A DNA stretch of 64,000 nt from Escherichia coli (GTDB lineage Bacteria > Pseudomonadota > Gammaproteobacteria > Enterobacterales > Enterobacteriaceae). Each line of letters opens with the position of its first letter. The first letter of the stretch is position 1. The DNA is taken from NCBI RefSeq assembly GCF_013315695.1, contig NZ_CP054353.1, one strand, 5' to 3'. The position numbers were made by a program, and so were the translations under genes. Under the pieces are notes generated by a model. The model saw nothing but the letters and a program-made list of their open reading frames with translations. It made no database searches and had not been told where the DNA came from. Below, piece by piece: positions 786 to 47,231 of this stretch.

Positions 786-1673
786 TTAGCCATTCTTTCT
801 TCCCGTTTTCAGTCCTCGATGGAAATCGTTAATTCGCTTAATGGTTTTAACCGCACGCTGCGGCACTGCGGAAGCTACCGACCAGACAATCATTTCCAGA
901 CACAACAATACCGTACCATGTAGCGGCGTTTTCCCTTTTTCATCCCCGCGCGGAACATGAATCACGATACTGGCGTCTTTGCTAAAACGTGAATCCAGCG
1001 CGTTTGTCAGCAAAATAACAGGGATCCCCAGCCGCCTCGCCTCACGAAGCGTTGTCAGCCCTTCCCGGTGCGCAGATTTTTGCGCCATCATGATCAGAAC
1101 ATCGCCACGTTGAAGCGCGATCAGTTGCTCGGCAAGGCCAATACCCGTACGGTTTAGTGCCGTGGCAGGCAAACCTATGCGGTTGAATAGTCGTGCGGTA
1201 TAGTCCGCCAGGATACCCGAAGCGCCAATGCCAAAAATAGCGACTTGCCGTGCCTGCACCAACAACGCTACAGCTTGCGCAAGCGCGTGGCGGTTTTCAG
1301 GCTCTGACAGGACATTACAGGTATACAAATGCCCTTCAAGAACAAAGTCGATTGCGGTGTTAACATCGCTCGTCAAGTTACTCACCGTCGTAGACATCTT
1401 TTCGCTGGAACTAAGGGCTGGACCAAGCCACTGTTCCAGAGTGCGTTTCAGATCACGCAGCCCGGCAAACCCCAGGGCCTGTATAGCCCTGATAACAGTG
1501 GCATCGGAAGTGTTCAACGTGGCCGCAATTTCCATCGCCGTTTGCTCGAGTACCACTTCACGATGCTCATTAATGTAGCTGGCGACAGCTCTTAACCCAG
1601 GCGTTAACTGACTCGCGCGAGTGCGAAAACGCTCACCAAAAATATCAACCCGCGCTTTATCTTTCTGGATCAT
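786..1673 (-). CDS. RpiR/MurR-family transcriptional regulator (N-terminal HTH, C-terminal SIS sugar-phosphate-binding domain)
   Basis: 295 aa ORF; HTH region followed by SIS-like glycine-rich motif (VAIFGIGASG); start overlaps upstream gene stop by 4 nt. Confidence 0.8.
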   Translation of the reverse strand: MIQKDKARVDIFGERFRTRASQLTPGLRAVASYINEHREVVLEQTAMEIAATLNTSDATVIRAIQALGFAGLRDLKRTLEQWLGPALSSSEKMSTTVSNLTSDVNTAIDFVLEGHLYTCNVLSEPENRHALAQAVALLVQARQVAIFGIGASGILADYTARLFNRIGLPATALNRTGIGLAEQLIALQRGDVLIMMAQKSAHREGLTTLREARRLGIPVILLTNALDSRFSKDASIVIHVPRGDEKGKTPLHGTVLLCLEMIVWSVASAVPQRAVKTIKRINDFHRGLKTGRKNG

Positions 1674-2617
1674 TTAGCCTCCGGTAGAGGTCGCCCTGCA
1701 ATTTGTGATTGTATCTGCGCAGCCATCAGCCCCAGTGATGCAAAGGAGTTAGAAATTGCCTCTTCACGAGAAATCAGCACATAACGCCCGGAACGACAGG
1801 CAGTCAGAAACTGACACCATCCCGGCATGACTTTTTCCATTGCTGCCAGCTCATCCTGAGGTTTACCACCGGTGTCACCGCGCCAGGTTGCAAAAACAAA
1901 ATCGGCATCCAGTTCAGGTAAACGCTCCGCGCTCACATCCATTCGCCCACCTTCAGGAATGCTCTCAATCAGCGGCGGAAAACGAAAACCAGCATCGCGT
2001 AATACCCGCCCCAGCGAATGATAGCTATGCATCACATTAATTTTTCCCTGGTTTGCCTGAATCACCGATACCGTTATTTTTTGGCTGTCCAGCGTCGCCT
2101 TCAGCGCATTGATTTGTGCCTGATAGCGGCGTTCAAGTATCGCCAGCTGCGACTGCGTTCCTGTAAGTTCTGCCAGCTTGCGATAGATTTCTGGCGCGCC
2201 CCCTTTGAGATGATCAATGCTCACCGTGGGCGCAATTTTTTCAAGTTGTTCAATGGGCGTATTACGGGTCGGTTCTGTGATGATCAAGTCAGGCTTTGCC
2301 GCCACAATCGCTTCAATATCAATATCAGCGGTACCAATAAAGGCGATCGATGAATTATCAAAGTCGACACCTGTCAATAACGCGCCAGATCGAATGAAAT
2401 GGCTACCGTCAGGCCGAGTTCGCCCGTGGCTGGCGACAGGAGGTACACCGAGCTCAATCAGAGGAATAGTGATATCAAGATCGTGTAAAGAGACAATTCT
2501 CTTTGGATGAGCAGGAACAGTGACTTTGCGCCCTAAATCATCAGTAAATACCTGAACAGGTTCTGTTGCACGGGAAAAAAATGACAACAGTATCAGCAGA
2601 GAAAAAAATAAACGCAT
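1670..2617 (-). CDS. periplasmic substrate-binding protein of a siderophore/heme/B12-type (FecB-like) ABC importer
   Basis: ORF 1670..2680; start placed at internal Met preceding a signal peptide (MRLFFSLLILLSFFSRA). Confidence 0.75.
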   Translation of the reverse strand: MRLFFSLLILLSFFSRATEPVQVFTDDLGRKVTVPAHPKRIVSLHDLDITIPLIELGVPPVASHGRTRPDGSHFIRSGALLTGVDFDNSSIAFIGTADIDIEAIVAAKPDLIITEPTRNTPIEQLEKIAPTVSIDHLKGGAPEIYRKLAELTGTQSQLAILERRYQAQINALKATLDSQKITVSVIQANQGKINVMHSYHSLGRVLRDAGFRFPPLIESIPEGGRMDVSAERLPELDADFVFATWRGDTGGKPQDELAAMEKVMPGWCQFLTACRSGRYVLISREEAISNSFASLGLMAAQIQSQIAGRPLPEAK

Positions 2618-2627
2618 ATAACTCCCG

Positions 2628-3677
2628 TTAAAAACTGTTCCTGCGCTGCCAGAGCAGTAGCAAAAAAAATGGTCCACCAATCAGTGAGATAATGATTCCG
2701 GCAGGCAGTTGCAAAGGCAAAAAAGCCAAACGACCAATGCTATCCGCCAGAATAACTAACAACGCCCCCGATACCGCACTCCCCAGCAGTAATGTCGTCT
2801 GCCCGCCACGTAGAATAAAACGTGATATATGGGGTGCTATCAATCCGACAAAACCGATGTTACCAACACACGAAACGCAGACGGCTGTCAGGATTATGGG
2901 TGCGGCGACACGTAACAACGCCAGACGAGAACTATTCACCCCTAACCCGGTTGCAACCTGATGACCAAGCAGAGCGATATCCGCCGTCCTGGCGGTGAAC
3001 AGCAATAAAAGAGCGGCTGGCAACATCCAACAGGCTGAAATACCGACTAACATCCAGTTAGCTGCATGCAGGCTTCCCGATAACCACATCAATGCAGTTT
3101 GTACATCTCGAACATCTGCAGTGGTCATAAATACACCGATACCGGCGGCGAAAAACCAAGAAACACCAATACCAATCAGAACAAATCGCGGGCGGGAAAT
3201 ATCGCGCGCACAAAAAATCACGATTAAAGCCACCAACAGGCCACCAGCAAGACCAGCCACTGGACGCCAGAACACTCCCAGCATTGGAAACTGGAAAATC
3301 AGCCACAGCACAGCCACGCTACATCCTTCTTTGACGCCGATTAACCCAGGATCGGCAAGGCCGTTACGTGCAATGGATTGCATTGCGGCCCCTGCCATAC
3401 CTAACATGGCCCCGCATAGCAATGCCATGATGACTCTCGGCAAGCGAATATCCTGCACAATATAACGTGCGTCTGTGCTTACGTTTTCTGGAGCAAACAA
3501 CGCTCGTCCTACTTCCGATGCCGGAACAGAGAAAGAACCCTGCATCAGACCGAATATCAGTATTCCAACCGCAAACAGAAACAGCCCACCAAGCAACAGC
3601 AGATTTTTAGGGCGTACCAGTGTCGAAAACTTACCAACACGTAGTGGGCGTAGCCCGACGTTCATTATCCGACTCAT
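2628..3677 (-). CDS. ABC importer permease, FecCD family
   Basis: 349 aa polytopic membrane ORF with FecCD-like sequence. Confidence 0.8.
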   Translation of the reverse strand: MSRIMNVGLRPLRVGKFSTLVRPKNLLLLGGLFLFAVGILIFGLMQGSFSVPASEVGRALFAPENVSTDARYIVQDIRLPRVIMALLCGAMLGMAGAAMQSIARNGLADPGLIGVKEGCSVAVLWLIFQFPMLGVFWRPVAGLAGGLLVALIVIFCARDISRPRFVLIGIGVSWFFAAGIGVFMTTADVRDVQTALMWLSGSLHAANWMLVGISACWMLPAALLLLFTARTADIALLGHQVATGLGVNSSRLALLRVAAPIILTAVCVSCVGNIGFVGLIAPHISRFILRGGQTTLLLGSAVSGALLVILADSIGRLAFLPLQLPAGIIISLIGGPFFLLLLWQRRNSF

Positions 3678-4657
3678 TTGAACATCCTCGTCGCCATAAT
3701 GACAAAAACAGGCGCACCAACTAACGCCGTCATGACACCGGTCGCTAATTCATGGGGCGTGAAAAGCGTACGGGCAATAATATCTGCCAGTAATAACAAA
3801 AGTGCGCCGACACAAGCTGAAAGAGGGAGCAGAACGCGCAGATCCGCTGATACCAGGCGCCGGACAATCTGCGGTACTAGCAGGCCGACAAAACCAATGG
3901 GGCCAGCAATCGATACGGCTGCGCCACAGAGCAACGCGATCGCAAGCAGGGTGAATGTTCGCGTGCGGAGTACAGAGACGCCCAGCCCCTGCGCCATGCG
4001 ATCGCCCAGTGCCAACATGTTAAGGGAGGGTGCAAGGTAAAGGGCTAACACAAATCCCCCCAGAGAAAACCAGGCGGACGTACCCAGCGTCGCCCAATCC
4101 TGCCCCGCTAAATCACCTGCTAGCCATGTCCGCATCGCCAGCAGTGTTTGTTCGTCAAGAATCAGGATTGCAGCCGTTATTGAGGACACGAACGCCGATA
4201 GCGCCACGCCGCATAAAGTAACTTTCATTGGCGTTAACCCTGAACGCCCTGCGGAGGAAAGCAGCAATATCAACAGGAACAATAACGCGCCGCCCGTAGA
4301 TGCCAGCAGTGGGCGTCCAACCGGAAAGGCCAGCCCAAGCGCACTGGCAGCAACGACAGCAAGAGCGGCTCCGGCATTTAAGCCTAAAATATGTGGCTCC
4401 CCCAATGGGTTACGAATGACAGCCTGCAACAAAGCACCAGCAACTCCAAGAGAAGCACCGGTAAGCAATGCTGCCGCTAAACGCGGCAAACGGAGTCTTA
4501 CAATTACGTTGTGATCGAAGTTTTGCGGTTCAAAATGAAGAAATGCCTGCAATACCGTTTGTGGTGCAATAAATCGGGCACCAATCCCTGGATATACCAC
4601 GCATCCCACCAGCAGTAAGGCGAGGAAAATTACAGTAACCAGCCCTGTGCGCATCAT
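3674..4657 (-). CDS. ABC importer permease, FecCD family
   Basis: 327 aa polytopic membrane ORF; 4-nt overlaps with both neighbours. Confidence 0.8.
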   Translation of the reverse strand: MMRTGLVTVIFLALLLVGCVVYPGIGARFIAPQTVLQAFLHFEPQNFDHNVIVRLRLPRLAAALLTGASLGVAGALLQAVIRNPLGEPHILGLNAGAALAVVAASALGLAFPVGRPLLASTGGALLFLLILLLSSAGRSGLTPMKVTLCGVALSAFVSSITAAILILDEQTLLAMRTWLAGDLAGQDWATLGTSAWFSLGGFVLALYLAPSLNMLALGDRMAQGLGVSVLRTRTFTLLAIALLCGAAVSIAGPIGFVGLLVPQIVRRLVSADLRVLLPLSACVGALLLLLADIIARTLFTPHELATGVMTALVGAPVFVIMATRMFK

Positions 4658-5463
4658 ACTTTTTCTACACCACGAAACGGCATGAAGAACGGCTTTCCCG
4701 TCAGAGGATTTATTGATGCGTGAACATCAACGTCAAAGACAGCTTTTACCAGCTCAGGCGTGCAATGCTCCCCCTCATTCAACACACGCACCACTTTCCC
4801 CTGGCGTAAAAATATCAACGTATCGCCATAATTGACGGCAAAATTCAGATCATGCAACACCACGACGACTGTACGCCCGTGATGACGTGTTAAATCATGT
4901 AATAACTCAAGAATTTCAACCTGATAACGTAAATCAAGCCAGGTTGTGGGTTCATCCAGCAGGATATAAGGCGTCTTTTGCGCCAACACCATCGCAATCC
5001 AGCAACGCTGACGCTGCCCGCCAGAGAGTTTTTCAACAGGTAAATGTGCAAACTCCTGCGTACCCGTTAATTTCAGGGCCTCTTCTACCGCCAGCTCATC
5101 GGCGTCGCTCCATTGACGAATGAAATTCTGCCAGGGAAAACGCCCACGCGACACCAGTTCATAAACGGTTAAGCCCTCCGGCAATAATGGCGACTGCGGC
5201 AAGATCCCAAGTCTACGGGATAACGCTTTCGTTGGTTGCTCGTGAATCGCTTTGCCATCAAGCAATATCGAACCGCCCATGGGTTGCAAGATACGTGCAA
5301 TGGTGCTGAGCAACGTCGACTTTCCACAGCCGTTTGCCCCAACCAGAACGGTCATTTTTTCTGTGGGAACGGAGAAAGAAACACCATCAACAATGATCTT
5401 CTTGTGATACCCGGCAGAAACATTGTCGAGGATCAGCCCCTGCCCTTTTGCGTTATGTGCCAC
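4654..5463 (-). CDS. ABC importer ATP-binding protein (FecE-like)
   Basis: Walker A GANGCGKST, ABC signature LSGGQRQR, Walker B ILLDEPT. Confidence 0.85.
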   Translation of the reverse strand: MAHNAKGQGLILDNVSAGYHKKIIVDGVSFSVPTEKMTVLVGANGCGKSTLLSTIARILQPMGGSILLDGKAIHEQPTKALSRRLGILPQSPLLPEGLTVYELVSRGRFPWQNFIRQWSDADELAVEEALKLTGTQEFAHLPVEKLSGGQRQRCWIAMVLAQKTPYILLDEPTTWLDLRYQVEILELLHDLTRHHGRTVVVVLHDLNFAVNYGDTLIFLRQGKVVRVLNEGEHCTPELVKAVFDVDVHASINPLTGKPFFMPFRGVEKV

Positions 5464-5469
5464 GTGTAC

Positions 5470-5836
5470 GCCAACTTAATCAAAGACAAACAAAAATAAA
5501 ACTCATTCTCCTTTGAGAGTTTGACGCCACAAAATGTAGTAGTCAAGCAGTTAAAAGCCACACAAAAACAAGGTAAATAACAGGTAAAATATTTTTGCAC
5601 ATAAAAATAAAAACATTAAATATCAATAATTTAAAAGCAATCAAATTGTATAAACTTTTCATAAAAACACATGTAGCAATTTTTTGTTATTTCTCATTTA
5701 CTACTACATTACTGCGTGATTGAATGATTCTCAATTACATATCCGATGGCGAAATAACAAACGGATAGTGCTTAGTGAGCAATAAGAAACAATTTTCACT
5801 CGCGACAATCCGCGAGTTTTTGGGATAACAGACTAA
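5470..5836. promoter_or_regulatory. AT-rich divergent promoter region between the ABC operon and the receptor gene; weak Fur-box-like motif near 5717-5738
   Basis: about 370 bp of AT-rich sequence between divergent starts; tgattgaatgattctcaattac resembles the Fur consensus only partially. Confidence 0.3.
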
Positions 5837-7978
5837 ATGGCTATGTTCACACCTTCATTCTCAGGACTCAAAGGTCGGGCGCTCTTTTCACTGCTTTTTG
5901 CGGCACCGATGATTCATGCAACAGACTCTGTAACGACCAAAGATGGCGAAACAATCACTGTTACAGCAGATGCAAATACCGCAACTGAGGCAACCGATGG
6001 TTATCAACCTCTGAGCACCTCTACGGCGACATTAACCGATATGCCGATGCTGGATATCCCGCAGGTGGTCAATACGGTTAGCGATCAGGTTCTGGAAAAC
6101 CAGAATGCGACAACGCTGGATGAGGCGCTTTATAACGTCAGTAACGTGGTACAGACCAATACATTAGGCGGGACTCAGGATGCTTTTGTACGCCGTGGGT
6201 TTGGCGCAAACCGGGATGGCTCCATCATGACCAACGGCCTGCGAACTGTACTTCCTCGCAGTTTCAACGCCGCCACAGAACGTGTGGAAGTGCTAAAAGG
6301 TCCGGCCTCCACGCTGTATGGCATTCTCGATCCTGGTGGATTGATTAACGTCGTGACCAAGCGCCCGGAAAAAACATTCCATGGTTCTGTCTCAGCCACG
6401 TCCTCCAGTTTTGGCGGAGGCACTGGGCAACTTGATATCACAGGTCCCATTGAAGGCACTCAGCTGGCATACCGCCTGACGGGGGAAGTGCAGGATGAAG
6501 ATTACTGGCGAAACTTCGGTAAAGAGCGCAGTACATTTATTGCCCCGTCACTCACCTGGTTTGGTGATAATGCAACAGTAACCATGCTCTATTCCCATCG
6601 GGACTATAAAACTCCGTTCGATCGTGGAACGATTTTCGACCTTACGACGAAACAGCCCGTAAACGTTGATCGAAAAATACGTTTTGACGAACCGTTTAAT
6701 ATTACAGATGGTCAGTCCGATCTGGCGCAACTCAACGCAGAATATCATCTCAATAGCCAGTGGACAGCGCGCTTTGATTACAGCTACAGCCAGGATAAAT
6801 ACAGCGACAATCAGGCTCGCGTTACCGCGTATGATGCAACGACAGGAACGCTGACACGGCGTGTTGATGCAACTCAGGGATCTACCCAGCGTATGCATTC
6901 TACTCGTGCGGATCTGCAAGGGAATGCTGATATTGCTGGGTTCTATAATGAGATTCTGGGTGGGGTGTCATATGAATATTATGATCTTCTGCGCACAGAT
7001 ATGATTCGCTGTAAAAACGCTAAAGATTTCAATATCTACAACCCCGTTTATGGCAATACCAGCAAATGCACAACGGTTTCGGCGTCGGACAGTGATCAGA
7101 CGATCAAACAGGAGAGCTACTCAGCGTATGCACAGGACGCGCTCTATCTGACCGATAACTGGATTGCCGTCGCCGGGATCCGCTATCAGTATTACACGCA
7201 GTATGCGGGTAAAGGCCGTCCTTTTAATGTCAATACTGACAGCCGCGATGAACAATGGACGCCCAAACTGGGGTTAGTCTACAAACTGACGCCATCGGTA
7301 TCCTTATTTGCCAATTATTCGCAAACATTTATGCCGCAGTCGTCAATTGCCAGCTACATTGGCGATCTTCCACCGGAATCATCTAATGCTTACGAAGTCG
7401 GGGCAAAATTCGAGCTATTCGATGGTATCACCGCAGATATTGCGCTGTTTGATATCCATAAACGTAACGTGTTGTATACCGAAAGTATTGGTGATGAAAC
7501 CATTGCCAAAACGGCAGGCCGTGTTCGTTCAAGAGGGGTAGAAGTCGACCTTGCGGGAGCATTAACTGAAAACATTAATATCATTGCCAGCTACGGCTAT
7601 ACCGATGCTAAGGTTCTGGAGGATCCTGATTATGCAGGGAAACCATTGCCGAATGTTCCTCGTCATACCGGTTCGCTATTCCTGACTTATGACATTCATA
7701 ACATGCCTGGCAATAACACACTGACGTTTGGCGGTGGTGGACATGGCGTAAGCCGTCGTTCGGCAACCAATGGGGCTGACTATTATCTGCCAGGCTATTT
7801 CGTTGCCGATGCCTTCGCTGCATACAAAATGAAATTGCAGTATCCGGTCACACTGCAATTAAACGTCAAAAACCTGTTTGATAAAACGTATTACACCTCT
7901 TCCATCGCCACAAATAATCTGGGGAATCAGATTGGCGATCCGCGTGAAGTGCAATTCACGGTGAAAATGGAATTTTGA
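5837..7978 (+). CDS. TonB-dependent outer-membrane receptor
   Basis: 713 aa; signal peptide, TonB-box-like ETITVTA, plug and barrel motifs, C-terminal Phe. Confidence 0.85.
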   Translation: MAMFTPSFSGLKGRALFSLLFAAPMIHATDSVTTKDGETITVTADANTATEATDGYQPLSTSTATLTDMPMLDIPQVVNTVSDQVLENQNATTLDEALYNVSNVVQTNTLGGTQDAFVRRGFGANRDGSIMTNGLRTVLPRSFNAATERVEVLKGPASTLYGILDPGGLINVVTKRPEKTFHGSVSATSSSFGGGTGQLDITGPIEGTQLAYRLTGEVQDEDYWRNFGKERSTFIAPSLTWFGDNATVTMLYSHRDYKTPFDRGTIFDLTTKQPVNVDRKIRFDEPFNITDGQSDLAQLNAEYHLNSQWTARFDYSYSQDKYSDNQARVTAYDATTGTLTRRVDATQGSTQRMHSTRADLQGNADIAGFYNEILGGVSYEYYDLLRTDMIRCKNAKDFNIYNPVYGNTSKCTTVSASDSDQTIKQESYSAYAQDALYLTDNWIAVAGIRYQYYTQYAGKGRPFNVNTDSRDEQWTPKLGLVYKLTPSVSLFANYSQTFMPQSSIASYIGDLPPESSNAYEVGAKFELFDGITADIALFDIHKRNVLYTESIGDETIAKTAGRVRSRGVEVDLAGALTENINIIASYGYTDAKVLEDPDYAGKPLPNVPRHTGSLFLTYDIHNMPGNNTLTFGGGGHGVSRRSATNGADYYLPGYFVADAFAAYKMKLQYPVTLQLNVKNLFDKTYYTSSIATNNLGNQIGDPREVQFTVKMEF

Positions 7979-16603: not shown

Positions 16604-18400
16604 ATGTTTGATAAATATAGAAAAACACTCGTAGCCGGAACTGTGGCGATAACCCTGGGTTTGTCAGCATCGGGGGTGATGGCTGCGGGTTTTAAACCAG
16701 CGCCGCCTGCCGGGCAACTGGGTGCGGTCATTGTCGATCCCTACGGCAATGCACCACTGACCGCTTTGGTTAACTTAGATAGCCATGTTATTTCTGACGT
16801 CAAAGTTACCGTCCATGGGAAGGGCGAAAAAGGCGTAGAAATCAGCTATCCCGTGGGTCAGGAATCACTAAAAACTTACGATGGTGTACCGATTTTTGGT
16901 CTTTATCAGAAATTTGCTAACAAAGTGACCGTTGAGTGGAAAGAAAACGGCAAGGTCATGAAAGATGATTATGTGGTGCACACTTCGGCCATCGTCAACA
17001 ATTACATGGATAACCGCTCCATCTCCGACCTACAGCAAACCAAAGTCGTTAAAGTCGCGCCAGGTTTTGAAGATCGCCTCTATCTGGTTAATACCCACAC
17101 CTTTACCGCCCAAGGTTCCGATCTCCACTGGCATGGTGAGAAAGATAAAAATGCCGGTATCCTTGATGCGGGTCCGGCAACTGGCGCACTCCCTTTTGAT
17201 ATCGCGCCCTTTACTTTCATCGTCGATACCGAAGGTGAATACCGCTGGTGGCTGGATCAAGACACTTTCTACGATGGTCGTGACCGCGATATCAACAAGC
17301 GTGGTTATCTGATGGGTATCCGCGAAACGCCACGCGGCACCTTTACCGCTGTACAAGGTCAGCACTGGTACGAGTTCGACATGATGGGGCAGGTGCTCGA
17401 AGATCACAAACTACCGCGCGGATTTGCTGACGCTACTCATGAATCCATTGAGACGCCAAATGGCACAGTATTGTTGCGCGTAGGTAAGAGCAATTACCGT
17501 CGCGATGACGGCGTACACGTCACCACCATTCGTGACCATATCCTCGAAGTCGATAAATCTGGTCGCGTTGTAGATGTATGGGATCTGACGAAGATCCTCG
17601 ATCCGAAACGCGATGCACTGCTCGGCGCGCTGGATGCAGGTGCAGTTTGCGTTAACGTTGACCTTGCCCATGCAGGACAACAGGCAAAACTGGAACCAGA
17701 TACACCGTTCGGCGACGCTCTGGGTGTAGGGCCAGGCCGTAACTGGGCGCACGTTAATTCCATCGCTTATGACGCAAAAGATGACTCAATTATTCTCTCT
17801 TCTCGTCACCAGGGTGTTGTGAAGATTGGTCGTGATAAGCAAGTGAAATGGATCCTTGCACCCTCTAAAGGTTGGGAAAAACCGCTGGCCAGCAAGCTGC
17901 TGAAACCGGTTGATGCTAACGGTAAGCCAATTACCTGTAACGAAAATGGCCTGTGCGAAAACTCAGACTTCGACTTTACCTACACCCAGCATACCGCCTG
18001 GATTTCCAGCAAAGGAACGCTCACCATTTTTGATAATGGCGATGGTCGTCATCTGGAACAACCTGCCTTACCAACCATGAAATATTCCCGCTTTGTGGAA
18101 TATAAGATTGATGAGAAGAAAGGCACCGTTCAGCAAGTGTGGGAATACGGTAAAGAACGTGGCTACGATTTCTATAGCCCAATCACCTCCATCATTGAAT
18201 ATCAAGCCGACCGTAACACCATGTTTGGCTTCGGTGGTTCTATTCATTTGTTCGATGTCGGGCAGCCAACCGTCGGTAAGTTGAACGAAATCGATTACAA
18301 AACCAAAGAAGTGAAAGTGGAAATCGACGTGCTGTCAGATAAACCCAATCAGACTCACTATCGTGCATTGTTAGTCCGTCCACAACAGATGTTCAAATAA
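16604..18400 (+). CDS. assT: periplasmic arylsulfate sulfotransferase
   Basis: 598 aa, signal peptide, sequence recognised as ASST as described in uropathogenic E. coli. Confidence 0.8.
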   Translation: MFDKYRKTLVAGTVAITLGLSASGVMAAGFKPAPPAGQLGAVIVDPYGNAPLTALVNLDSHVISDVKVTVHGKGEKGVEISYPVGQESLKTYDGVPIFGLYQKFANKVTVEWKENGKVMKDDYVVHTSAIVNNYMDNRSISDLQQTKVVKVAPGFEDRLYLVNTHTFTAQGSDLHWHGEKDKNAGILDAGPATGALPFDIAPFTFIVDTEGEYRWWLDQDTFYDGRDRDINKRGYLMGIRETPRGTFTAVQGQHWYEFDMMGQVLEDHKLPRGFADATHESIETPNGTVLLRVGKSNYRRDDGVHVTTIRDHILEVDKSGRVVDVWDLTKILDPKRDALLGALDAGAVCVNVDLAHAGQQAKLEPDTPFGDALGVGPGRNWAHVNSIAYDAKDDSIILSSRHQGVVKIGRDKQVKWILAPSKGWEKPLASKLLKPVDANGKPITCNENGLCENSDFDFTYTQHTAWISSKGTLTIFDNGDGRHLEQPALPTMKYSRFVEYKIDEKKGTVQQVWEYGKERGYDFYSPITSIIEYQADRNTMFGFGGSIHLFDVGQPTVGKLNEIDYKTKEVKVEIDVLSDKPNQTHYRALLVRPQQMFK

Positions 18401-18417
18401 TTAAGAAGGGAATAAAA

Positions 18418-19086
18418 ATGTCGAAATTAGGGATCTCATCACTATTTAAAAGCATACTGCTTACTGCAGCTTTGGCTGTTTCATTTACCGCCTCTGCATT
18501 TACCGAAGGCACGGATTACATGGTTCTGGAAAAACCTATTCCGAATGCAGACAAAACGCTGATTAAGGTATTCAGCTACGCCTGCCCGTTCTGTTACAAG
18601 TACGACAAAGCGGTTACCGGTCCGGTATCGGAAAAAGTGAAAGATATCGTTGCTTTCACGCCGTTCCATCTGGAAACCAAAGGTGAATACGGCAAACAAG
18701 CAAGCGAAGTCTTTGCGGTCTTGATCAATAAAGATAAAGCAGCAGGCATTTCCTTATTTGATGCTAACTCTCAGTTTAAGAAAGCCAAGTTTGCCTACTA
18801 CGTGGCTTATCACGACAAAAAAGAACGCTGGTCTGACGGTAAAGATCCGGCTGCTTTTATCAAAACCGGTCTGGATGCCGCAGGTATGAGTCAGGCGGAT
18901 TTTGAAGCGGCACTGAAAGAACCAGCGGTTCAAGAAACACTGGAAAAATGGAAAGCCTCTTATGATGTCGCCAAAATCCAGGGGGTTCCAGCCTATGTCG
19001 TTAATGGTAAGTACTTGATCTACACCAAGAGCATCAAATCCATCGACGCGATGGCAGACCTTATCCGTGAGTTAGCAAGCAAATAA
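18418..19086 (+). CDS. dsbL: periplasmic thiol:disulfide oxidoreductase DsbL (DsbA paralogue)
   Basis: 222 aa, signal peptide, CPFC active-site motif. Confidence 0.8.
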
Positions 19087-19100
19087 CAGGGAAACAGGCT

Positions 19101-19772
19101 ATGGGTATTAAGGGAATGTGGAAAGATCTTCGCACATCACCAGTTGACACACTGGTCAGATGGCAGGAGCAACGCTTGTTGTGGTTGTTAATGGCCGTTG
19201 CGATGGGCGCGTTAATTATCCTGGCGCACTCTTTCTTCCAGATCTATCTCTACATGGCACCCTGTGAGCAATGTGTATACATTCGCTACGCCATGTTTGT
19301 GATGGTTATTGGAGGATTGGTTGCAGCGATCAACCCAAAGAACATCATCCTAAAGCTAATTGGCTGCGTGATGGCATTTTACGGCAGCATTTTGGGACTG
19401 AAGTTTTCGCTCAAACTGAACGATATCCACCATGCAGTACATAATCCGGATCCCGATTCACTGTTTGGCGTACAGGGTTGCTCTACCGATCCAACTTTTC
19501 CCTTTAACCTGCCGCTGGCACAGTGGGCACCAAATTGGTTCAAGCCTACCGGGGATTGTGGCTATGACGCACCAATCGTTCCTGATGGCGTCACACTGAG
19601 CAGCACGCAACAGTGGTTTGTGGAAATGTATCAGCAATCTGAAGGCTGGTATCTGCTACCACCATGGCATTTTATGAATATGGCTCAGGCTTGTATGCTG
19701 GCTTTTGGTATGTGTCTGGTGCTGCTGGTCATTATGAGTGGCGCATGGGCGCTTAAAATCATCAGAGGCTAA
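19101..19772 (+). CDS. dsbI: membrane disulfide oxidoreductase DsbI (DsbB paralogue)
   Basis: 223 aa polytopic protein with CxxC (CEQC) and a second Cys pair. Confidence 0.8.
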
Positions 19773-42264: not shown

Positions 42265-44010
42265 ATGGCTGGACGAATCCCACGCGTATTCATTAATGAT
42301 CTGCTGGCACGCACTGACATCGTCGATCTGATCGATGCCCGTGTGAAGCTGAAAAAGCAGGGCAAGAATTTCCACGCGTGTTGTCCATTCCACAACGAGA
42401 AAACCCCATCATTCACCGTTAACGGTGAGAAACAGTTTTACCACTGCTTTGGATGTGGCGCGCACGGCAACGCGATCGACTTCCTGATGAACTACGACAA
42501 GCTTGAGTTCGTCGAAACGGTCGAAGAGCTGGCAGCAATGCACAATCTTGAAGTGCCATTTGAAGCAGGTAGCGGCCCCAGCCAGATCGAGCGCCATCAA
42601 CGACAAACGCTTTATCAGTTGATGGACGGTCTGAATACGTTTTACCAACAATCTTTACAGCAACCTGTTGCCACGTCTGCGCGCCAGTATCTGGAAAAAC
42701 GCGGATTAAGCCACGAGGTTATCGCCCGCTTTGCGATTGGTTTTGCCCCCCCTGGCTGGGACAACGTCCTGAAGCGGTTTGGCGGCAATCCAGAAAATCG
42801 CCAGTCATTGATTGATGCGGGCATGTTGGTCACTAACGATCAGGGGCGCAGTTACGACCGTTTCCGCGAGCGGGTGATGTTCCCCATTCGTGATAAACGC
42901 GGTCGGGTGATTGGTTTTGGCGGACGCGTGCTGGGCAACGATACCCCCAAATACCTGAACTCGCCGGAAACGGACATTTTCCATAAAGGCCGCCAGCTTT
43001 ACGGTCTTTATGAAGCGCAGCAGGATAACGCTGAACCCAATCGTCTGCTTGTGGTCGAAGGCTATATGGACGTGGTGGCGCTGGCGCAATACGGCATTAA
43101 TTACGCCGTTGCGTCGTTAGGTACGTCAACCACTGCCGATCACATACAACTGTTGTTCCGCGCGACCAACAATGTCATTTGCTGTTATGACGGCGACCGT
43201 GCAGGCCGCGATGCCGCCTGGCGAGCGCTGGAAACGGCGCTGCCTTACATGACAGACGGTCGTCAGCTACGCTTTATGTTTTTGCCTGATGGCGAAGACC
43301 CTGACACGCTGGTACGAAAAGAAGGTAAAGAAGCGTTTGAAGCGCGGATGGAGCAGGCGATGCCACTCTCCGCATTTCTGTTTAACAGTCTGATGCCGCA
43401 AGTTGATCTGAGTACCCCTGACGGGCGCGCACGTTTGAGTACGCTGGCACTGCCATTGATATCGCAAGTGCCGGGCGAAACGCTGCGAATATATCTTCGT
43501 CAGGAATTAGGCAACAAATTAGGCATACTTGATGACAGCCAGCTTGAACGATTAATGCCAAAAGCGGCAGAGAGCGGCGTTTCTCGCCCTGTTCCGCAGC
43601 TAAAACGCACGACCATGCGTATACTTATAGGGTTGCTGGTGCAAAATCCAGAATTAGCGACGTTGGTCCCGCCGCTTGGGAATCTGGATGAAAATAAGCT
43701 CCCTGGACTTGGCTTATTCAGAGAACTGGTCAACACTTGTCTCTCCCAGCCAGGTCTGACCACCGGGCAACTTTTAGAGCACTATCGTGGTACAAATAAT
43801 GCTGCCACCCTTGAAAAACTGTCGATGTGGGACGATATAGCAGATAAGAATATTGCTGAGCAAACCTTCACCGACTCACTCAACCATATGTTTGATTCGC
43901 TGCTTGAACTGCGCCAGGAAGAGTTAATCGCTCGTGAGCGCACGCATGGTTTAAGCAACGAAGAACGCCTGGAGCTCTGGACATTAAACCAGGAGCTGGC
44001 GAAAAAGTGA
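42265..44010 (+). CDS. dnaG: DNA primase
   Basis: 581 aa; zinc-binding CPFHNEKTPSF motif. Confidence 0.97.
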   Translation: MAGRIPRVFINDLLARTDIVDLIDARVKLKKQGKNFHACCPFHNEKTPSFTVNGEKQFYHCFGCGAHGNAIDFLMNYDKLEFVETVEELAAMHNLEVPFEAGSGPSQIERHQRQTLYQLMDGLNTFYQQSLQQPVATSARQYLEKRGLSHEVIARFAIGFAPPGWDNVLKRFGGNPENRQSLIDAGMLVTNDQGRSYDRFRERVMFPIRDKRGRVIGFGGRVLGNDTPKYLNSPETDIFHKGRQLYGLYEAQQDNAEPNRLLVVEGYMDVVALAQYGINYAVASLGTSTTADHIQLLFRATNNVICCYDGDRAGRDAAWRALETALPYMTDGRQLRFMFLPDGEDPDTLVRKEGKEAFEARMEQAMPLSAFLFNSLMPQVDLSTPDGRARLSTLALPLISQVPGETLRIYLRQELGNKLGILDDSQLERLMPKAAESGVSRPVPQLKRTTMRILIGLLVQNPELATLVPPLGNLDENKLPGLGLFRELVNTCLSQPGLTTGQLLEHYRGTNNAATLEKLSMWDDIADKNIAEQTFTDSLNHMFDSLLELRQEELIARERTHGLSNEERLELWTLNQELAKK

Positions 44011-44204: not shown

Positions 44205-46046
44205 ATGGAGCAAAACCCGCAGTCACAGCTGAAACTTCTTGTCACCCGTGGTAAGGAGCAAGGCTATCTGACCTATGCCGAGGTCAATGACCATCTGCCG
44301 GAAGATATCGTCGATTCAGATCAGATCGAAGACATCATCCAAATGATCAACGACATGGGCATTCAGGTGATGGAAGAAGCACCGGATGCCGATGATCTGA
44401 TGCTGGCTGAAAACACCGCGGACGAAGATGCTGCCGAAGCCGCCGCGCAGGTGCTTTCCAGCGTGGAATCTGAAATCGGGCGCACGACTGACCCGGTACG
44501 CATGTACATGCGTGAAATGGGCACCGTTGAACTGTTGACCCGCGAAGGCGAAATTGACATCGCTAAGCGTATTGAAGACGGGATCAACCAGGTTCAATGC
44601 TCCGTTGCTGAATATCCGGAAGCGATCACCTATCTGCTGGAACAGTACGATCGTGTTGAAGCAGAAGAAGCGCGTCTGTCCGATCTGATCACCGGCTTTG
44701 TTGACCCGAACGCAGAAGAAGATCTGGCACCTACCGCCACTCACGTCGGTTCTGAGCTTTCCCAGGAAGATCTGGACGATGACGAAGATGAAGACGAAGA
44801 AGATGGCGATGACGACAGCGCCGATGATGACAACAGCATCGACCCGGAACTGGCTCGTGAAAAATTTGCGGAACTGCGCGCTCAGTACGTTGTAACGCGT
44901 GACACCATCAAAGCGAAAGGTCGCAGTCACGCTGCCGCTCAGGAAGAGATCCTGAAACTGTCTGAAGTATTCAAACAGTTCCGCCTGGTGCCAAAGCAGT
45001 TTGACTACCTGGTCAACAGCATGCGCGTCATGATGGACCGCGTTCGTACGCAAGAACGTCTGATCATGAAGCTCTGCGTTGAGCAGTGCAAAATGCCGAA
45101 GAAAAACTTCATTACCCTGTTTACCGGCAACGAAACCAGCGATACCTGGTTCAACGCGGCAATTGCGATGAACAAGCCGTGGTCGGAAAAACTGCACGAT
45201 GTCTCTGAAGAAGTGCATCGCGCCCTGCAGAAACTGCAGCAGATTGAAGAAGAAACCGGCCTGACCATCGAGCAGGTTAAAGATATCAACCGTCGTATGT
45301 CCATCGGTGAAGCGAAAGCCCGCCGTGCGAAGAAAGAGATGGTTGAAGCGAACTTACGTCTGGTTATTTCTATCGCCAAGAAATACACCAACCGTGGCTT
45401 GCAGTTCCTTGACCTGATTCAGGAAGGTAACATCGGCCTGATGAAAGCGGTTGATAAATTCGAATACCGCCGTGGTTACAAGTTCTCCACCTACGCAACC
45501 TGGTGGATCCGTCAGGCGATCACCCGTTCTATCGCGGATCAGGCGCGCACCATCCGTATTCCGGTGCATATGATTGAGACTATCAACAAACTCAACCGTA
45601 TTTCTCGCCAGATGCTGCAAGAGATGGGCCGTGAACCGACGCCGGAAGAACTGGCTGAACGTATGCTGATGCCGGAAGACAAGATCCGCAAAGTGCTGAA
45701 GATCGCCAAAGAGCCAATCTCCATGGAAACGCCGATCGGTGATGATGAAGATTCGCATCTGGGGGATTTCATCGAGGATACCACCCTCGAGCTGCCGCTG
45801 GATTCTGCGACCACCGAAAGCCTGCGTGCGGCAACGCACGACGTGCTGGCTGGCCTGACCGCGCGTGAAGCAAAAGTTCTTCGTATGCGTTTCGGTATCG
45901 ATATGAACACCGACCACACGCTGGAAGAAGTGGGTAAACAGTTCGACGTTACCCGCGAACGTATCCGTCAGATCGAAGCGAAGGCGCTGCGCAAACTGCG
46001 TCACCCGAGCCGTTCTGAAGTGCTGCGTAGCTTCCTGGACGATTAA
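44205..46046 (+). CDS. rpoD: RNA polymerase sigma-70 factor
   Basis: 613 aa; acidic insert and regions 2-4 recognised. Confidence 0.97.
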
Positions 46047-46061
46047 TTGTAAAGATGTGCA

Positions 46062-46090
46062 TAAGCCCTCCATCGTGAGGGCTTTTTTTT
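46062..46090 (+). terminator. rpoD rho-independent terminator
   Basis: stem agccctc/gagggct followed by eight T. Confidence 0.7.
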
Positions 46091-46104
46091 AAGGAAATCT
46101 GGCA

Positions 46105-46668
46105 ATGCAGCAAGGATACTACTCTCTCCCCGCCCTTATTTCCGCTCTCGATGCCGGGAAAAAGGTGAAATACCTGTGGTTCTGGGGCCATCAACCTGCC
46201 GCGAATCACGAAATTACCGCCTCTTGCTTTAGCCAGTGGTGGCAGGGTTCGCCTTTTACCTATGATGGTATAACCTATGCCACCGCAGAACACTGGATGA
46301 TGGCGGGAAAAGCGCGGCTGTTTAATGACAGTAAAACACTTGCCAGAATTCTGGCGGCGGCGACCCCGGCAGAAGCCAAAAAGCTGGGGCGACAGGTGAC
46401 AAACTTTGACGAGCAATGCTGGCAAGCTTGCTGCTTTGATCTGGTCTGCGAATGGAACTACCATAAATTTAGCCAACATTCGGCATTAAAAACATTCCTG
46501 CTGAATACGCAGCCTCGCATTCTGGTTGAAGCCAGCCCGGTGGATAAAATCTGGGGGATTGGCCTTGCAAAAGATCATCCCCATGCCGGTGTGCCATCTC
46601 ACTGGAAGGGGAAAAATCTGCTGGGATTTGCGCTTATGGTAGTCAGAGACCGTTTGGCGGAAGAATAA
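46105..46668 (+). CDS. NADAR-family protein (YbiA-like, DUF1768)
   Basis: 187 aa; motifs shared with E. coli YbiA (TAEHWMMAGK vs TSEHYFQAQK; IWGIGL...KGKNLLGFALMVVRDRL vs YWGDGGHGKGKNRLGYLLMELREQL); AAGGA RBS. Confidence 0.7.
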   Translation: MQQGYYSLPALISALDAGKKVKYLWFWGHQPAANHEITASCFSQWWQGSPFTYDGITYATAEHWMMAGKARLFNDSKTLARILAAATPAEAKKLGRQVTNFDEQCWQACCFDLVCEWNYHKFSQHSALKTFLLNTQPRILVEASPVDKIWGIGLAKDHPHAGVPSHWKGKNLLGFALMVVRDRLAEE

Positions 46669-46724
46669 GCCAGTAGCGGTGAGGAGCGGTGCCTGGCCCG
46701 CTCATAACTTCGTTACACTGTACT

Positions 46725-47231
46725 TCACAAGCCACGCACTACCAGCGCCTGGTCCAGCTCGCGATACGCTTCAACCAGTTTCTCCAGTGAAACGCGACTT
46801 AAACCACTGGGATTTGGCAGCACCCAAATCTGCGTCGAACCAATGGTGAGCGTTTGTTTCCCCCACTGTGCACCGCGCTGGCTGAATCCCTGTTCATATG
46901 CTTGTTTGCCCAGAATCGCCAACGCCTGCGGCTGATAATCTTCTATTTTTTCAATTAGCTTACGCCCGCCTGCGTGCAGCTCCTGCTTTGACACTTCATT
47001 GGCTTGCACCGTTGGACGGTCTACCAGTTTGGTGACGCCACAACGATAATCCAGCAGATGCTGTGCCTCCTGCGGCTTCAACTGACGGTCGGTAAACCCG
47101 GCCTGATATATCACCTTCCAGAAGCGATTTGCCGGATGAGCAAAGGGAAAACCAGTCCCGGCGGATGAAAGCCCAGGGTTGATACCGCAAAACACGACCC
47201 GTAACCCTGGAGCCAAAATATCCTCAACCAT
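46725..47231 (-). CDS. mug: G/U mismatch-specific uracil-DNA glycosylase
   Basis: 168 aa ORF, sequence recognised. Confidence 0.95.

What the first reader, a model, noticed from the sequence alone, without database searches (positions are those of the whole stretch)
46105..46668. NADAR-family gene inserted 15 bp after the rpoD terminator, convergent with the DNA glycosylase gene mug
In K-12 as I recall it, rpoD and mug are separated by only about 140 bp with no gene between them. Here a 187 aa ORF with clear NADAR/YbiA signature motifs fills that gap. Its RBS starts immediately after the T-run of the rpoD terminator, leaving no room for an own promoter, so it is probably expressed by read-through from the sigma-70 operon. 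NADAR proteins have been reported to hydrolyse ADP-ribose from guanine in DNA and to act on riboflavin intermediates. A NADAR paralogue beside a base-excision glycosylase suggests a nucleic-acid base-modification reversal role, but its substrate here is unknown.
Basis: partly seen in the sequence, partly recalled or inferred. Interest (0 to 1): 0.65.

Follow-up and report, generated by a model that had tools for sequence, protein, structure and literature searches.

The report
Sigma-70-linked NADAR gene, already described
The ORF is a real, intact NADAR-family gene that about 1% of complete E. coli genomes carry between rpoD and mug, and it is the "sigma-70-linked NADAR" published in 2024 as an enzyme that removes ADP-ribose from guanine in DNA, so it is a correct observation of a known gene.

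Summary
Window 46105-46668 (+) encodes a 187-aa protein that matches Pfam NADAR at E=8e-53. It lies between rpoD and the convergent mug.

A K-12-type genome has only 78 unrelated bases in this gap. Just 62 of 5426 complete E. coli genomes carry the gene, always as a single copy at this site.

The gene is not new. It is 98% identical to E2348/69 WP_001183948.1, the "EPEC sigma-70-linked NADAR" of Cihlova et al. 2024 (PMC11125620). That protein removes ADP-ribose from guanine in ssDNA in vitro, does not act on ADP-ribosyl-thymidine, and partly rescues DarT1 toxicity.

What I add:
- The conserved partner is rpoD, not mug. The same order, rpoD, then terminator hairpin with T-run, then ribosome-binding site, then NADAR, occurs in six further Enterobacterales lineages, two of which lack mug there.
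- The cassette crosses genus boundaries. NADAR dS is 0.25 against a Salmonella-labelled genome, while mug dS is 1.65.
- In the carriers SMS-3-5 and E2348/69 the K-12-type ybiA is absent or truncated.
- This window's allele has a private G117W change at a near-invariant glycine.

The physiological target and the expression route remain untested. Novelty: already known. Interest: low.

The parts
44205..46046 (+). rpoD (sigma-70), last gene of the rpsU-dnaG-rpoD operon and the conserved upstream partner of the NADAR gene
   Evidence: The product is identical to WP_000437371.1. rpoD lies directly upstream of the NADAR gene in five of the six further lineages; in Citrobacter sp. R56 the held DNA is cut off before rpoD.
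46063..46090 (+). Intrinsic-terminator-like hairpin (AAGCCCTC-CATCGT-GAGGGCTT) followed by a T-run. It differs from the K-12 rpoD terminator.
   Evidence: A hairpin plus T-run occupies the same place in Superficieibacter, Intestinirhabdus, Limnobaculum, Leminorella, Citrobacter youngae and the Salmonella-labelled genome, with different stem sequences.
46091..46095 (+). Shine-Dalgarno-like AAGGA, 9 nt before the ATG and directly after the T-run
   Evidence: Read from the sequence. No +-strand promoter-like site between 45700 and 46105.
46105..46668 (+). NADAR-family gene, 187 aa: the 'sigma-70-linked, stand-alone' NADAR, orthologue of E2348/69 WP_001183948.1
   Evidence: dN/dS is 0.07-0.10 against the three most divergent orthologues compared: GF43, Superficieibacter and Intestinirhabdus.
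46453..46455 (+). Codon 117, TGG (Trp). This is a private G117W change at a position that is Gly in 38 of 40 family members and in all five other E. coli alleles examined.
   Evidence: Only the window's own genome and MSB1_4I match 100% over the 611-base query that contains the gene.
46685..46703 (.). Short G+C-rich hairpin (GAGCGG ... CCGCTC) between the two convergent stop codons, with no T-run on either strand
   Evidence: E2348/69 has a 10-bp shorter version of this spacer.
46048..46731 (.). The variable cassette. K-12-type genomes have 78 unrelated bases here.
   Evidence: The K-12 segment looks to me like a REP-type palindrome followed by a different terminator hairpin; no tool was run on that.
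46725..47231 (-). mug (G/U mismatch DNA glycosylase), convergent neighbour. Its last codon lies inside the variable segment.
   Evidence: 167 of 168 residues identical to K-12.

Best explanation
This is the E. coli 'sigma-70-linked' stand-alone NADAR, a small single-domain N-glycosidase of the NADAR/YbiA superfamily.

Shown in the literature for a 98%-identical orthologue: it cleaves the bond between ADP-ribose and the N2 of guanine in single-stranded DNA. It does not act on ADP-ribosyl-thymidine. It only partly protects cells from the DarT1 toxin.

Shown here: the catalytic and ADP-ribose-binding residues are present (E62, K69, K92, G95, R96, W106, E142, D147, W150). The predicted fold matches the NADAR-ADP-ribose crystal structure. 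No ADP-ribosyltransferase gene lies beside it. The gene sits as a cassette directly behind a terminator hairpin at the end of the rpsU-dnaG-rpoD operon, and that position is conserved across Enterobacterales. It is under purifying selection. The cassette has been exchanged between genera.

Inferred: it is transcribed at a low level by read-through of the rpoD terminator. It acts as an orphan 'eraser' of guanine ADP-ribosylation, or of a related N-glycosidic adduct, made by ADP-ribosyltransferases encoded elsewhere or brought in from outside (phage, competitor toxins). It is not half of a local toxin-antitoxin pair.
For: Identity:
- Pfam NADAR E=8e-53.
- 184 of 187 residues identical to E2348/69 WP_001183948.1 at the same locus.
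- That accession is listed as the E. coli 'bacterial stand-alone' NADAR, and the construct 'EPEC NADAR residues 1-187' is described, in PMC11125620.

Activity of the orthologue: guanosine-ADPr hydrolysis in vitro, no thymidine-ADPr hydrolysis, partial rescue of DarT1 toxicity.

Active site: I mapped the residues of 8BAU described in PMC11543638 through the alignment. The five positions tabulated (E62, K69, E142, D147, W150) are invariant in 40 of 40 family members; the alignment summary also lists K92, G95 and W106 as invariant and R96 as nearly invariant.

Fold: the AlphaFold2 model has pLDDT 92.3. Its best PDB matches are 8BAU (TM 0.70) and YbiA 2B3W.

Selection: dN/dS 0.07-0.10.

Context:
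- rpoD-NADAR order in Superficieibacter, Intestinirhabdus, Citrobacter youngae, Limnobaculum, Leminorella and a Salmonella-labelled genome; NADAR-mug in Citrobacter sp. R56, where the held DNA stops short of rpoD.
- A hairpin plus T-run precedes the ribosome-binding site in every lineage where that spacer could be read, all but Citrobacter sp. R56.
- No promoter-like site upstream.

Orphan status: the neighbours are rpoD and mug, and no ADP-ribosyltransferase is annotated in the parts of the window I read.
Against: - No transcript data were available. The hairpin with an 8-T run looks like an efficient terminator, so expression could be very low.
- The physiological substrate is unknown even for the published orthologue. 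Its rescue of DarT1 toxicity is weak.
- The family also passes the NCBIfam model for riboflavin-intermediate N-glycosidases, and RefSeq names this very gene that way.
- This window's allele carries G117W at a near-invariant glycine. It could be less active than the tested EPEC protein.
- About 99% of complete E. coli genomes do without the gene, so its contribution is dispensable.
Confidence: 0.72

Rival explanations
1. It is a metabolite-repair enzyme like K-12 YbiA: an N-glycosidase that destroys reactive riboflavin-pathway intermediates. On this view the DNA de-ADP-ribosylation seen in vitro is a side activity of the conserved pocket.
For: TIGR02464 ('riboflavin biosynthesis intermediates N-glycosidase') scores 159.6 bits against a cut-off of 73.7, and RefSeq names the gene that way. 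The protein has the YbiA-type glutamate (E142) in the last beta-strand, not the Asp of DarT1-linked NADARs. In SMS-3-5 and E2348/69 the K-12-type ybiA is missing or truncated, so this could be the only enzyme of the kind in those strains. K-12 YbiA itself also hydrolyses guanine-ADPr in vitro.
Against: Identity to YbiA is only 34%. The protein has N-terminal and internal extensions that YbiA lacks. No riboflavin gene is linked to it; ribB lies about 23 kb away in unrelated context. Unlike YbiA, the orthologue gives some rescue from DarT1 in vivo. About 2000 genomes lack K-12-type ybiA but only 62 have this gene, so it is not a general replacement.
Confidence: 0.18
2. In this particular strain the gene is a weakened or inactive allele. 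It would be a dispensable accessory gene on its way to loss, so the locus has no present function here.
For: G117W is private to this genome and one other. The position is Gly in 38 of 40 relatives and in all five other E. coli alleles examined. It lies in the long helix 103-124 that starts near the ADP-ribose-contacting W106. About 99% of complete genomes lack the gene.
Against: The ORF is full length and all mapped catalytic residues are intact. The family is under strong purifying selection. A single substitution has unknown effect, and AlphaFold2 still models the protein with confidence, though that says little about a point mutant.
Confidence: 0.15
3. It works with Mug as a two-gene DNA base-repair module. 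NADAR would remove ADP-ribose from a base and Mug would process the product or related lesions.
For: The two genes are convergent neighbours 56 bp apart in E. coli, Superficieibacter, Intestinirhabdus, two Citrobacter lineages and the Salmonella-labelled genome.
Against: Convergent genes are not co-transcribed. Limnobaculum and Leminorella keep rpoD-NADAR without mug, and in Leminorella the sequence that follows reads as the tRNA-Ile gene. E2348/69 has the NADAR gene beside a mug pseudogene. mug is present in genomes that lack the cassette. In the cross-genus comparison NADAR and mug have very different histories: dS 0.25 against 1.65.
Confidence: 0.04
4. It is a component of a multi-gene anti-phage or toxin-antitoxin system: DarT1-NADAR, PADLOC candidate PDC-M42, or DS32.
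For: PADLOC PDC-M42C matches at E=1e-38 over the full profile. There is a weak match to NF053876, DS32_2 anti-phage NADAR.
Against: The flanking genes are rpoD and mug, so there is no partner gene. NF053876 scores 32.6 bits against a cut-off of 240. The published phylogeny places the protein among stand-alone NADARs, outside the DarT1-linked clade. The matches reflect the shared domain.
Confidence: 0.03

Closest known systems
EPEC 'sigma-70-linked' stand-alone NADAR, E. coli O127:H6 E2348/69 WP_001183948.1 (Cihlova et al. 2024, Toxins 16:208, PMC11125620)
   Same: Same locus (rpoD-NADAR-mug), same length, 184 of 187 residues identical, and an identical upstream terminator and ribosome-binding site. 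This is the same gene.
   Different: Three substitutions: T78I, C105R and W117G going from the window to EPEC. The window's W117 is the unusual state. The spacer downstream is 10 bp longer in the window. mug is intact here and a pseudogene in E2348/69.
E. coli K-12 YbiA (PDB 2B3W), riboflavin-intermediate N-glycosidase in the ybiA-dinG region
   Same: Same superfamily and core fold, and the same Glu in the last beta-strand. Both hydrolyse guanine-ADPr in vitro.
   Different: 34% identity. YbiA is 160 aa and lacks roughly 30 N-terminal residues and an 11-residue insert present here. It sits at a different locus. It gives no DarT1 rescue. It is present in 3432 of 5426 genomes, against 62 for this gene.
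Phytophthora nicotianae NADAR with bound ADP-ribose (PDB 8BAU; Schuller et al. 2023, PMC11543638)
   Same: Best sequence and structure match in the PDB (E=9e-16, TM 0.70). The ADP-ribose-contacting residues align, and the catalytic Glu is of the YbiA type.
   Different: About 30% identity, and a eukaryotic host. R93 of 8BAU aligns with C110 here, and Y84 with F101.
DarT1-associated NADAR antitoxin (E. coli C7, Geobacter lovleyi)
   Same: The same chemistry on guanine-ADPr DNA. The EPEC orthologue partly substitutes for it in vivo.
   Different: No adjacent DarT1. It falls in a different clade of the published tree. It has Glu where that clade has its catalytic Asp.

Membership tests
NADAR superfamily (Pfam PF08719) | Significant full-length match to the family profile | tested here: met
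   E=8e-53 over model positions 7-162 of 163.
NADAR superfamily (Pfam PF08719) | YbiA-like fold | tested here: met
   AlphaFold2 model with pLDDT 92.3. Foldseek gives 8BAU at TM 0.70 and 2B3W at TM 0.64-0.70, with no other match at E<=0.001.
NADAR superfamily (Pfam PF08719) | Conserved catalytic Glu and Lys (E88 and K95 in E. coli C7 NADAR; E43 and K50 in P. nicotianae NADAR) | tested here: met
   E62 and K69 align with them. Both are invariant in 40 of 40 relatives.
Sigma-70-linked stand-alone NADAR (Cihlova et al. 2024) | Located directly downstream of rpoD in the rpsU-dnaG-rpoD cluster, single domain, no adjacent ADP-ribosyltransferase | tested here: met
Sigma-70-linked stand-alone NADAR (Cihlova et al. 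2024) | Orthology to the characterised EPEC protein WP_001183948.1 | tested here: met
   98% identity at the same locus. The accession is listed in the paper's supplement.
Sigma-70-linked stand-alone NADAR (Cihlova et al. 2024) | Hydrolysis of guanine-linked ADP-ribose on DNA | not testable with these tools
   Shown for the EPEC orthologue only. The window allele differs at three residues, including G117W.
Sigma-70-linked stand-alone NADAR (Cihlova et al. 2024) | Co-transcription with rpoD ('integrated into the operon') | not testable with these tools
   The sequence shows a terminator hairpin plus T-run between the genes and no promoter-like site. No transcript data were available.
YbiA family sensu de Souza & Aravind (Glu-type NADAR) | Glutamate, not Asp or His, in the last beta-strand | tested here: met
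   E142 lies in strand 139-142. It aligns with E125 of P. nicotianae NADAR and with the VEH Glu of YbiA.
Riboflavin-intermediate N-glycosidase (NCBIfam TIGR02464, YbiA/COG3236) | Score above the curated cut-off | tested here: met
   159.6 bits against 73.7. This is a domain-level model, so it does not establish the substrate.
Riboflavin-intermediate N-glycosidase (NCBIfam TIGR02464, YbiA/COG3236) | Activity on riboflavin-pathway intermediates, or fusion or linkage to rib genes | tested here: not met
   There is no fusion and no linked rib gene; ribB is about 23 kb away. Enzyme activity cannot be tested here.
DarT1-NADAR (DarTG1) toxin-antitoxin system | Adjacent DarT1 ADP-ribosyltransferase gene | tested here: not met
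   The neighbours are rpoD and mug.
PADLOC candidate PDC-M42 / NCBIfam DS32_2 anti-phage NADAR | Partner genes of the system next to the NADAR gene; score above the curated cut-off for DS32_2 | tested here: not met
   There are no partner genes. NF053876 scores 32.6 bits against a cut-off of 240. The PDC-M42C match is to the shared domain.

The most novel reading that the evidence does not exclude
The cassette (terminator, ribosome-binding site, NADAR) is a mobile 'orphan immunity' gene. It hitch-hikes on the universally conserved 3' end of rpoD and spreads between enterobacterial genera by homologous recombination. It is kept at a trickle of constitutive expression by leaky termination of the macromolecular-synthesis operon. 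Its role would be to erase guanine ADP-ribosylation inflicted by incoming ADP-ribosyltransferases (phage- or competitor-encoded) on DNA or RNA. The published work raised the safeguard idea. The cross-genus exchange (NADAR dS 0.25 against 1.3-1.65 for flanking genes) and the conserved terminator gate are new support for it, but neither has been tested functionally.
Probability: 0.25. Interest if true: 0.5.

Novelty: already known. Interest (0 to 1): 0.17.

Why it matters
The gene, its unusual position behind rpoD and its in-vitro activity were published in 2024, so the finding itself adds nothing new.

What remains open is the physiological target of stand-alone NADARs. The notes made here may help anyone choosing strains and constructs to address that:
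- rpoD, not mug, is the conserved partner.
- A terminator gate is conserved across genera.
- The cassette has been exchanged between genera.
- The cassette is present together with loss of K-12-type ybiA in two carriers.
- This isolate's allele carries G117W.

The case also shows an annotation problem: RefSeq now labels this gene 'ybiA, riboflavin biosynthesis intermediates N-glycosidase' in some genomes, although it is only 34% identical to YbiA.

Tried and rejected
- Remnant of the cassette in K-12. I looked for residual homology between the 78-bp K-12 intergenic segment and the 678-bp cassette. Only chance-level local matches turned up (score 9-10), so I cannot say from sequence whether K-12 lost the cassette or carriers gained it.
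- Mobile-element origin. tblastn against plasmids and phages found no relative above 60% identity. No repeats, integrase or transposase flank the gene.
- ybiA locus of the window's own genome. I tried to find it by synteny. The genome is rearranged relative to K-12 and SMS-3-5, so I gave up and used SMS-3-5 and E2348/69 as proxies.
- Non-coding RNA. Rfam at a permissive threshold found only the tRNA-Ile gene, with a sub-threshold match on its opposite strand.
- Absence from close relatives.
- Later NADAR papers. PMC12945103 and PMC11833690 do not mention this protein.

Full report
**1. What is in the sequence**

Window 46105-46668 (+) is an ATG-initiated ORF of 187 codons. It follows rpoD (44205-46046), which follows dnaG (42265-44010). 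It converges on mug (46725-47231, - strand). After mug come a tRNA gene (47356-47428; Rfam tRNA, annotated tRNA-Ile) and nfeF.

Between the rpoD stop codon and the ORF there are 58 bases. They hold an 8-bp hairpin with 5 G-C pairs (46063-46084), a T-run reaching 46090, an AAGGA at 46091-95 and the ATG at 46105. The consensus scan finds no +-strand promoter-like site between 45700 and the start codon.

The window is 100% identical to E. coli blood-culture isolate AF3, NZ_OZ547117.1. RefSeq annotates the ORF there as 'ybiA: riboflavin biosynthesis intermediates N-glycosidase'.

**2. Is it a NADAR gene**

Yes.
- Pfam NADAR matches at E=8e-53 over nearly the full model.
- NCBIfam TIGR02464 scores 159.6 bits against a cut-off of 73.7.
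- The only sequence matches among solved structures are the Phytophthora nicotianae NADAR (8BAU, E=9e-16) and E. coli YbiA (2B3W, E=3e-12).
- An AlphaFold2 model built on 40 relatives has mean pLDDT 92.3. It superposes on 8BAU (TM 0.70) and 2B3W (TM 0.64-0.70) and on nothing else at E<=0.001.

Schuller et al. 2023 describe the ADP-ribose contacts of 8BAU and mutagenesis of E. coli C7 NADAR (PMC11543638). Carrying those residues through the alignment gives E62, K69, K92, G95, R96, W106, E142, D147 and W150 in this protein. E62, K69, E142, D147 and W150 are invariant in 40 of 40 relatives.

E142 sits in the last beta-strand. That is the Glu-type ('YbiA family') state, not the Asp of DarT1-linked NADARs or the His of phage NADARs.

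**3. Distribution in E. coli**

A K-12-type genome has rpoD and mug 78 bp apart with no gene between them.

Of 5426 complete RefSeq genomes, 62 contain the gene. The same number contain the contiguous rpoD-gene-mug stretch. Every copy is chromosomal and single. Alleles range from 92.6% to 100% identity. Carriers include SMS-3-5 and E2348/69.

The two haplotypes differ over the whole intergenic segment. Similarity stops one base after the rpoD stop codon and resumes inside the last two codons of mug. The K-12 segment has no detectable homology to the cassette. 'Alternative cassette' describes this better than 'insertion'.

**4. It is already published**

Cihlova et al. 2024 (Toxins 16:208, PMC11125620) describe four NADAR subtypes in E. 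coli. One of them is a stand-alone NADAR 'integrated into a conserved operon' with sigma-70, primase and S21, present in strains such as EPEC O127:H6.
- Their supplement lists WP_001183948.1 as the E. coli stand-alone NADAR, and their construct is 'EPEC NADAR residues 1-187'.
- WP_001183948.1 is the protein annotated between rpoD and mug in E2348/69. It is 184/187 identical to the window's protein.
- They report that it hydrolyses guanosine-ADP-ribose on ssDNA in vitro and does not hydrolyse thymidine-ADP-ribose.
- It rescues E. coli from DarT1 'to some extent', less well than the cognate DarT1-linked NADAR. YbiA and T4 gp30.3 do not rescue at all.
- Their discussion raises co-regulation with replication, transcription and translation, and the idea of a safeguard against exogenous ADP-ribosyltransferases.

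A search for NADAR together with rpoD or dnaG found no other paper on this gene.

**5. What I can add**

(a) The conserved partner is rpoD, not mug.
- dnaG-rpoD-NADAR-mug occurs in Intestinirhabdus alba, Citrobacter youngae and a genome deposited as Salmonella enterica.
- rpoD-NADAR-mug occurs in Superficieibacter.
- NADAR-mug occurs in Citrobacter sp. R56, where the locus is cut off on the left.
- dnaG-rpoD-NADAR without mug occurs in Limnobaculum and Leminorella.
- Serratia silvae has a relative that is not linked to rpoD.
- In a neighbour-joining tree without support values, the Enterobacterales sequences group together, apart from the 60-64% identical homologues of Bacteroidota, Streptomyces and others.

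(b) The terminator gate is conserved. In every rpoD-linked lineage where the spacer could be read, the rpoD stop codon is followed by a G+C-rich hairpin plus T-run, then within 10-30 nt a ribosome-binding site and the start codon. The stem sequences differ between genera. This fits expression by terminator read-through. Because the hairpin looks efficient, it also suggests low expression. Both points are inference.

(c) The gene is under purifying selection. dN/dS is 0.07-0.10 against the GF43 allele, Superficieibacter and Intestinirhabdus.

(d) The cassette has moved between genera. I compared the window with the Salmonella-labelled genome (GCA_006852405.1). dS is 0.25 for NADAR, and the 58-nt upstream spacer is 98% identical. 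In contrast dS is 1.65 for mug and 1.32 for dnaG. Within E. coli, window against GF43 gives dS 0.25 for NADAR but 0.125 for mug. The three alleles are about equally distant from one another whatever the host. No relative above 60% identity is on a plasmid or phage. Exchange is therefore most simply explained by homologous recombination in the conserved flanks, which is inference.

(e) It is not necessarily a second NADAR. K-12-type ybiA is found in only 3432 of 5426 genomes. E2348/69 has a truncated ybiA pseudogene. SMS-3-5 has a PaaA2/ParE-type toxin-antitoxin pair in the ybiA slot. That replacement occurs in 325 genomes, and at least 20 of the NADAR carriers are among them. Most genomes without ybiA also lack the cassette, so this is not a systematic replacement. 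I could not locate the ybiA slot in the window's own genome.

(f) This isolate's allele is unusual. It differs from SMS-3-5 by one nucleotide, which gives G117W. Position 117 is Gly in 38 of 40 relatives and in all five other E. coli alleles examined. It lies in helix 103-124. The effect is unknown, and a hypomorph is possible.

**6. Mechanism and rivals**

Best supported: an orphan NADAR hydrolase that removes ADP-ribose from guanine in nucleic acid, produced at a low level from rpoD-operon transcripts that pass the terminator. The biochemistry is shown for the orthologue. The active site, fold and context are shown here. Expression and physiological target are inferred.

The main rival is a YbiA-like role in clearing riboflavin-pathway intermediates. 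The profile match and the Glu-type active site allow it. There is no rib linkage and identity to YbiA is only 34%. Only enzymology can settle it.

A functional pairing with Mug is disfavoured for four reasons. The genes are convergent. mug is absent from the locus in two genera. mug is a pseudogene in E2348/69. The two genes have different evolutionary histories.

Membership of a DarT1, PDC-M42 or DS32 system fails for want of partner genes and, for DS32_2, on score.

**7. Verdict**

The novelty claim does not hold, because the gene, its position and its in-vitro substrate are in the literature. It is already known and of low interest. A modest open question remains about its physiological target and its terminator-gated expression.

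Noticed in passing
window 46453-46455: Private G117W substitution in the NADAR gene: TGG here, GGG in SMS-3-5. The position is Gly in 38 of 40 family members. Only NZ_LR898874.1 (MSB1_4I) also matches 100% over the 611-base query that contains the gene.
   Followed up: partly
L083 3626-4132 (E2348/69, NC_011601.1): mug next to the NADAR gene is annotated as a pseudogene with an internal stop in E2348/69, the strain whose NADAR was characterised.
   Followed up: no
L085 5925-6407 (K-12-type ybiA); L087 13039-13236 (E2348/69); L089 14090-14811 (SMS-3-5): K-12-type ybiA is itself accessory, present in 3432 of 5426 complete genomes. It is truncated in E2348/69. In SMS-3-5 and 324 other genomes it is replaced by a PaaA2/ParE-type toxin-antitoxin pair between rhlE and dinG.
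   Followed up: partly
L096 4001-4564 (GCA_006852405.1, labelled Salmonella enterica) against window 46105-46668: The NADAR cassette is 94% identical in nucleotides between genera (dS 0.25), while the flanking mug and dnaG are 78-80% identical (dS 1.3-1.65). This indicates recent exchange between genera at a fixed chromosomal site. In that genome phage-like genes (Pfam matches to phage capsid, terminase-subunit Nu1 and AlpA families) follow the tRNA-Ile gene.
   Followed up: partly
PMC11125620: The paper lists STEC O157:H7 among carriers. O157:H7 strain Z1830 and O55:H7 CB9615 lack the gene, and none of the 60 listed complete-genome carriers is labelled O157:H7.
   Followed up: no
window 46105-46668 and RefSeq annotation: RefSeq names the same gene either 'NADAR family protein' or 'ybiA: riboflavin biosynthesis intermediates N-glycosidase' depending on the genome. 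The second name borrows the gene symbol of a 34%-identical protein at another locus.
   Followed up: no
window 46669-46724 against L083 3580-3625: The spacer between the NADAR and mug stop codons contains AGCGGTG twice, 10 nt apart, in the window and once in E2348/69. This is a 10-bp length polymorphism next to a short hairpin.
   Followed up: no
window about 786-7978 and 16604-19772: Two further gene blocks: a MurR/RpiR regulator with an iron-siderophore ABC transporter and a TonB-dependent receptor between ygiN and parE, and assT-dsbL-dsbI after ygiC. As far as I recall, K-12 lacks both; I ran no comparison with K-12.
   Followed up: no
L099 6072-7028 (Citrobacter youngae): In C. youngae, about 1 kb beyond mug, the precomputed gene table lists a gene whose product matches the Pfam family AbiTii (PF18864). 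It is not present at the E. coli locus.
   Followed up: no
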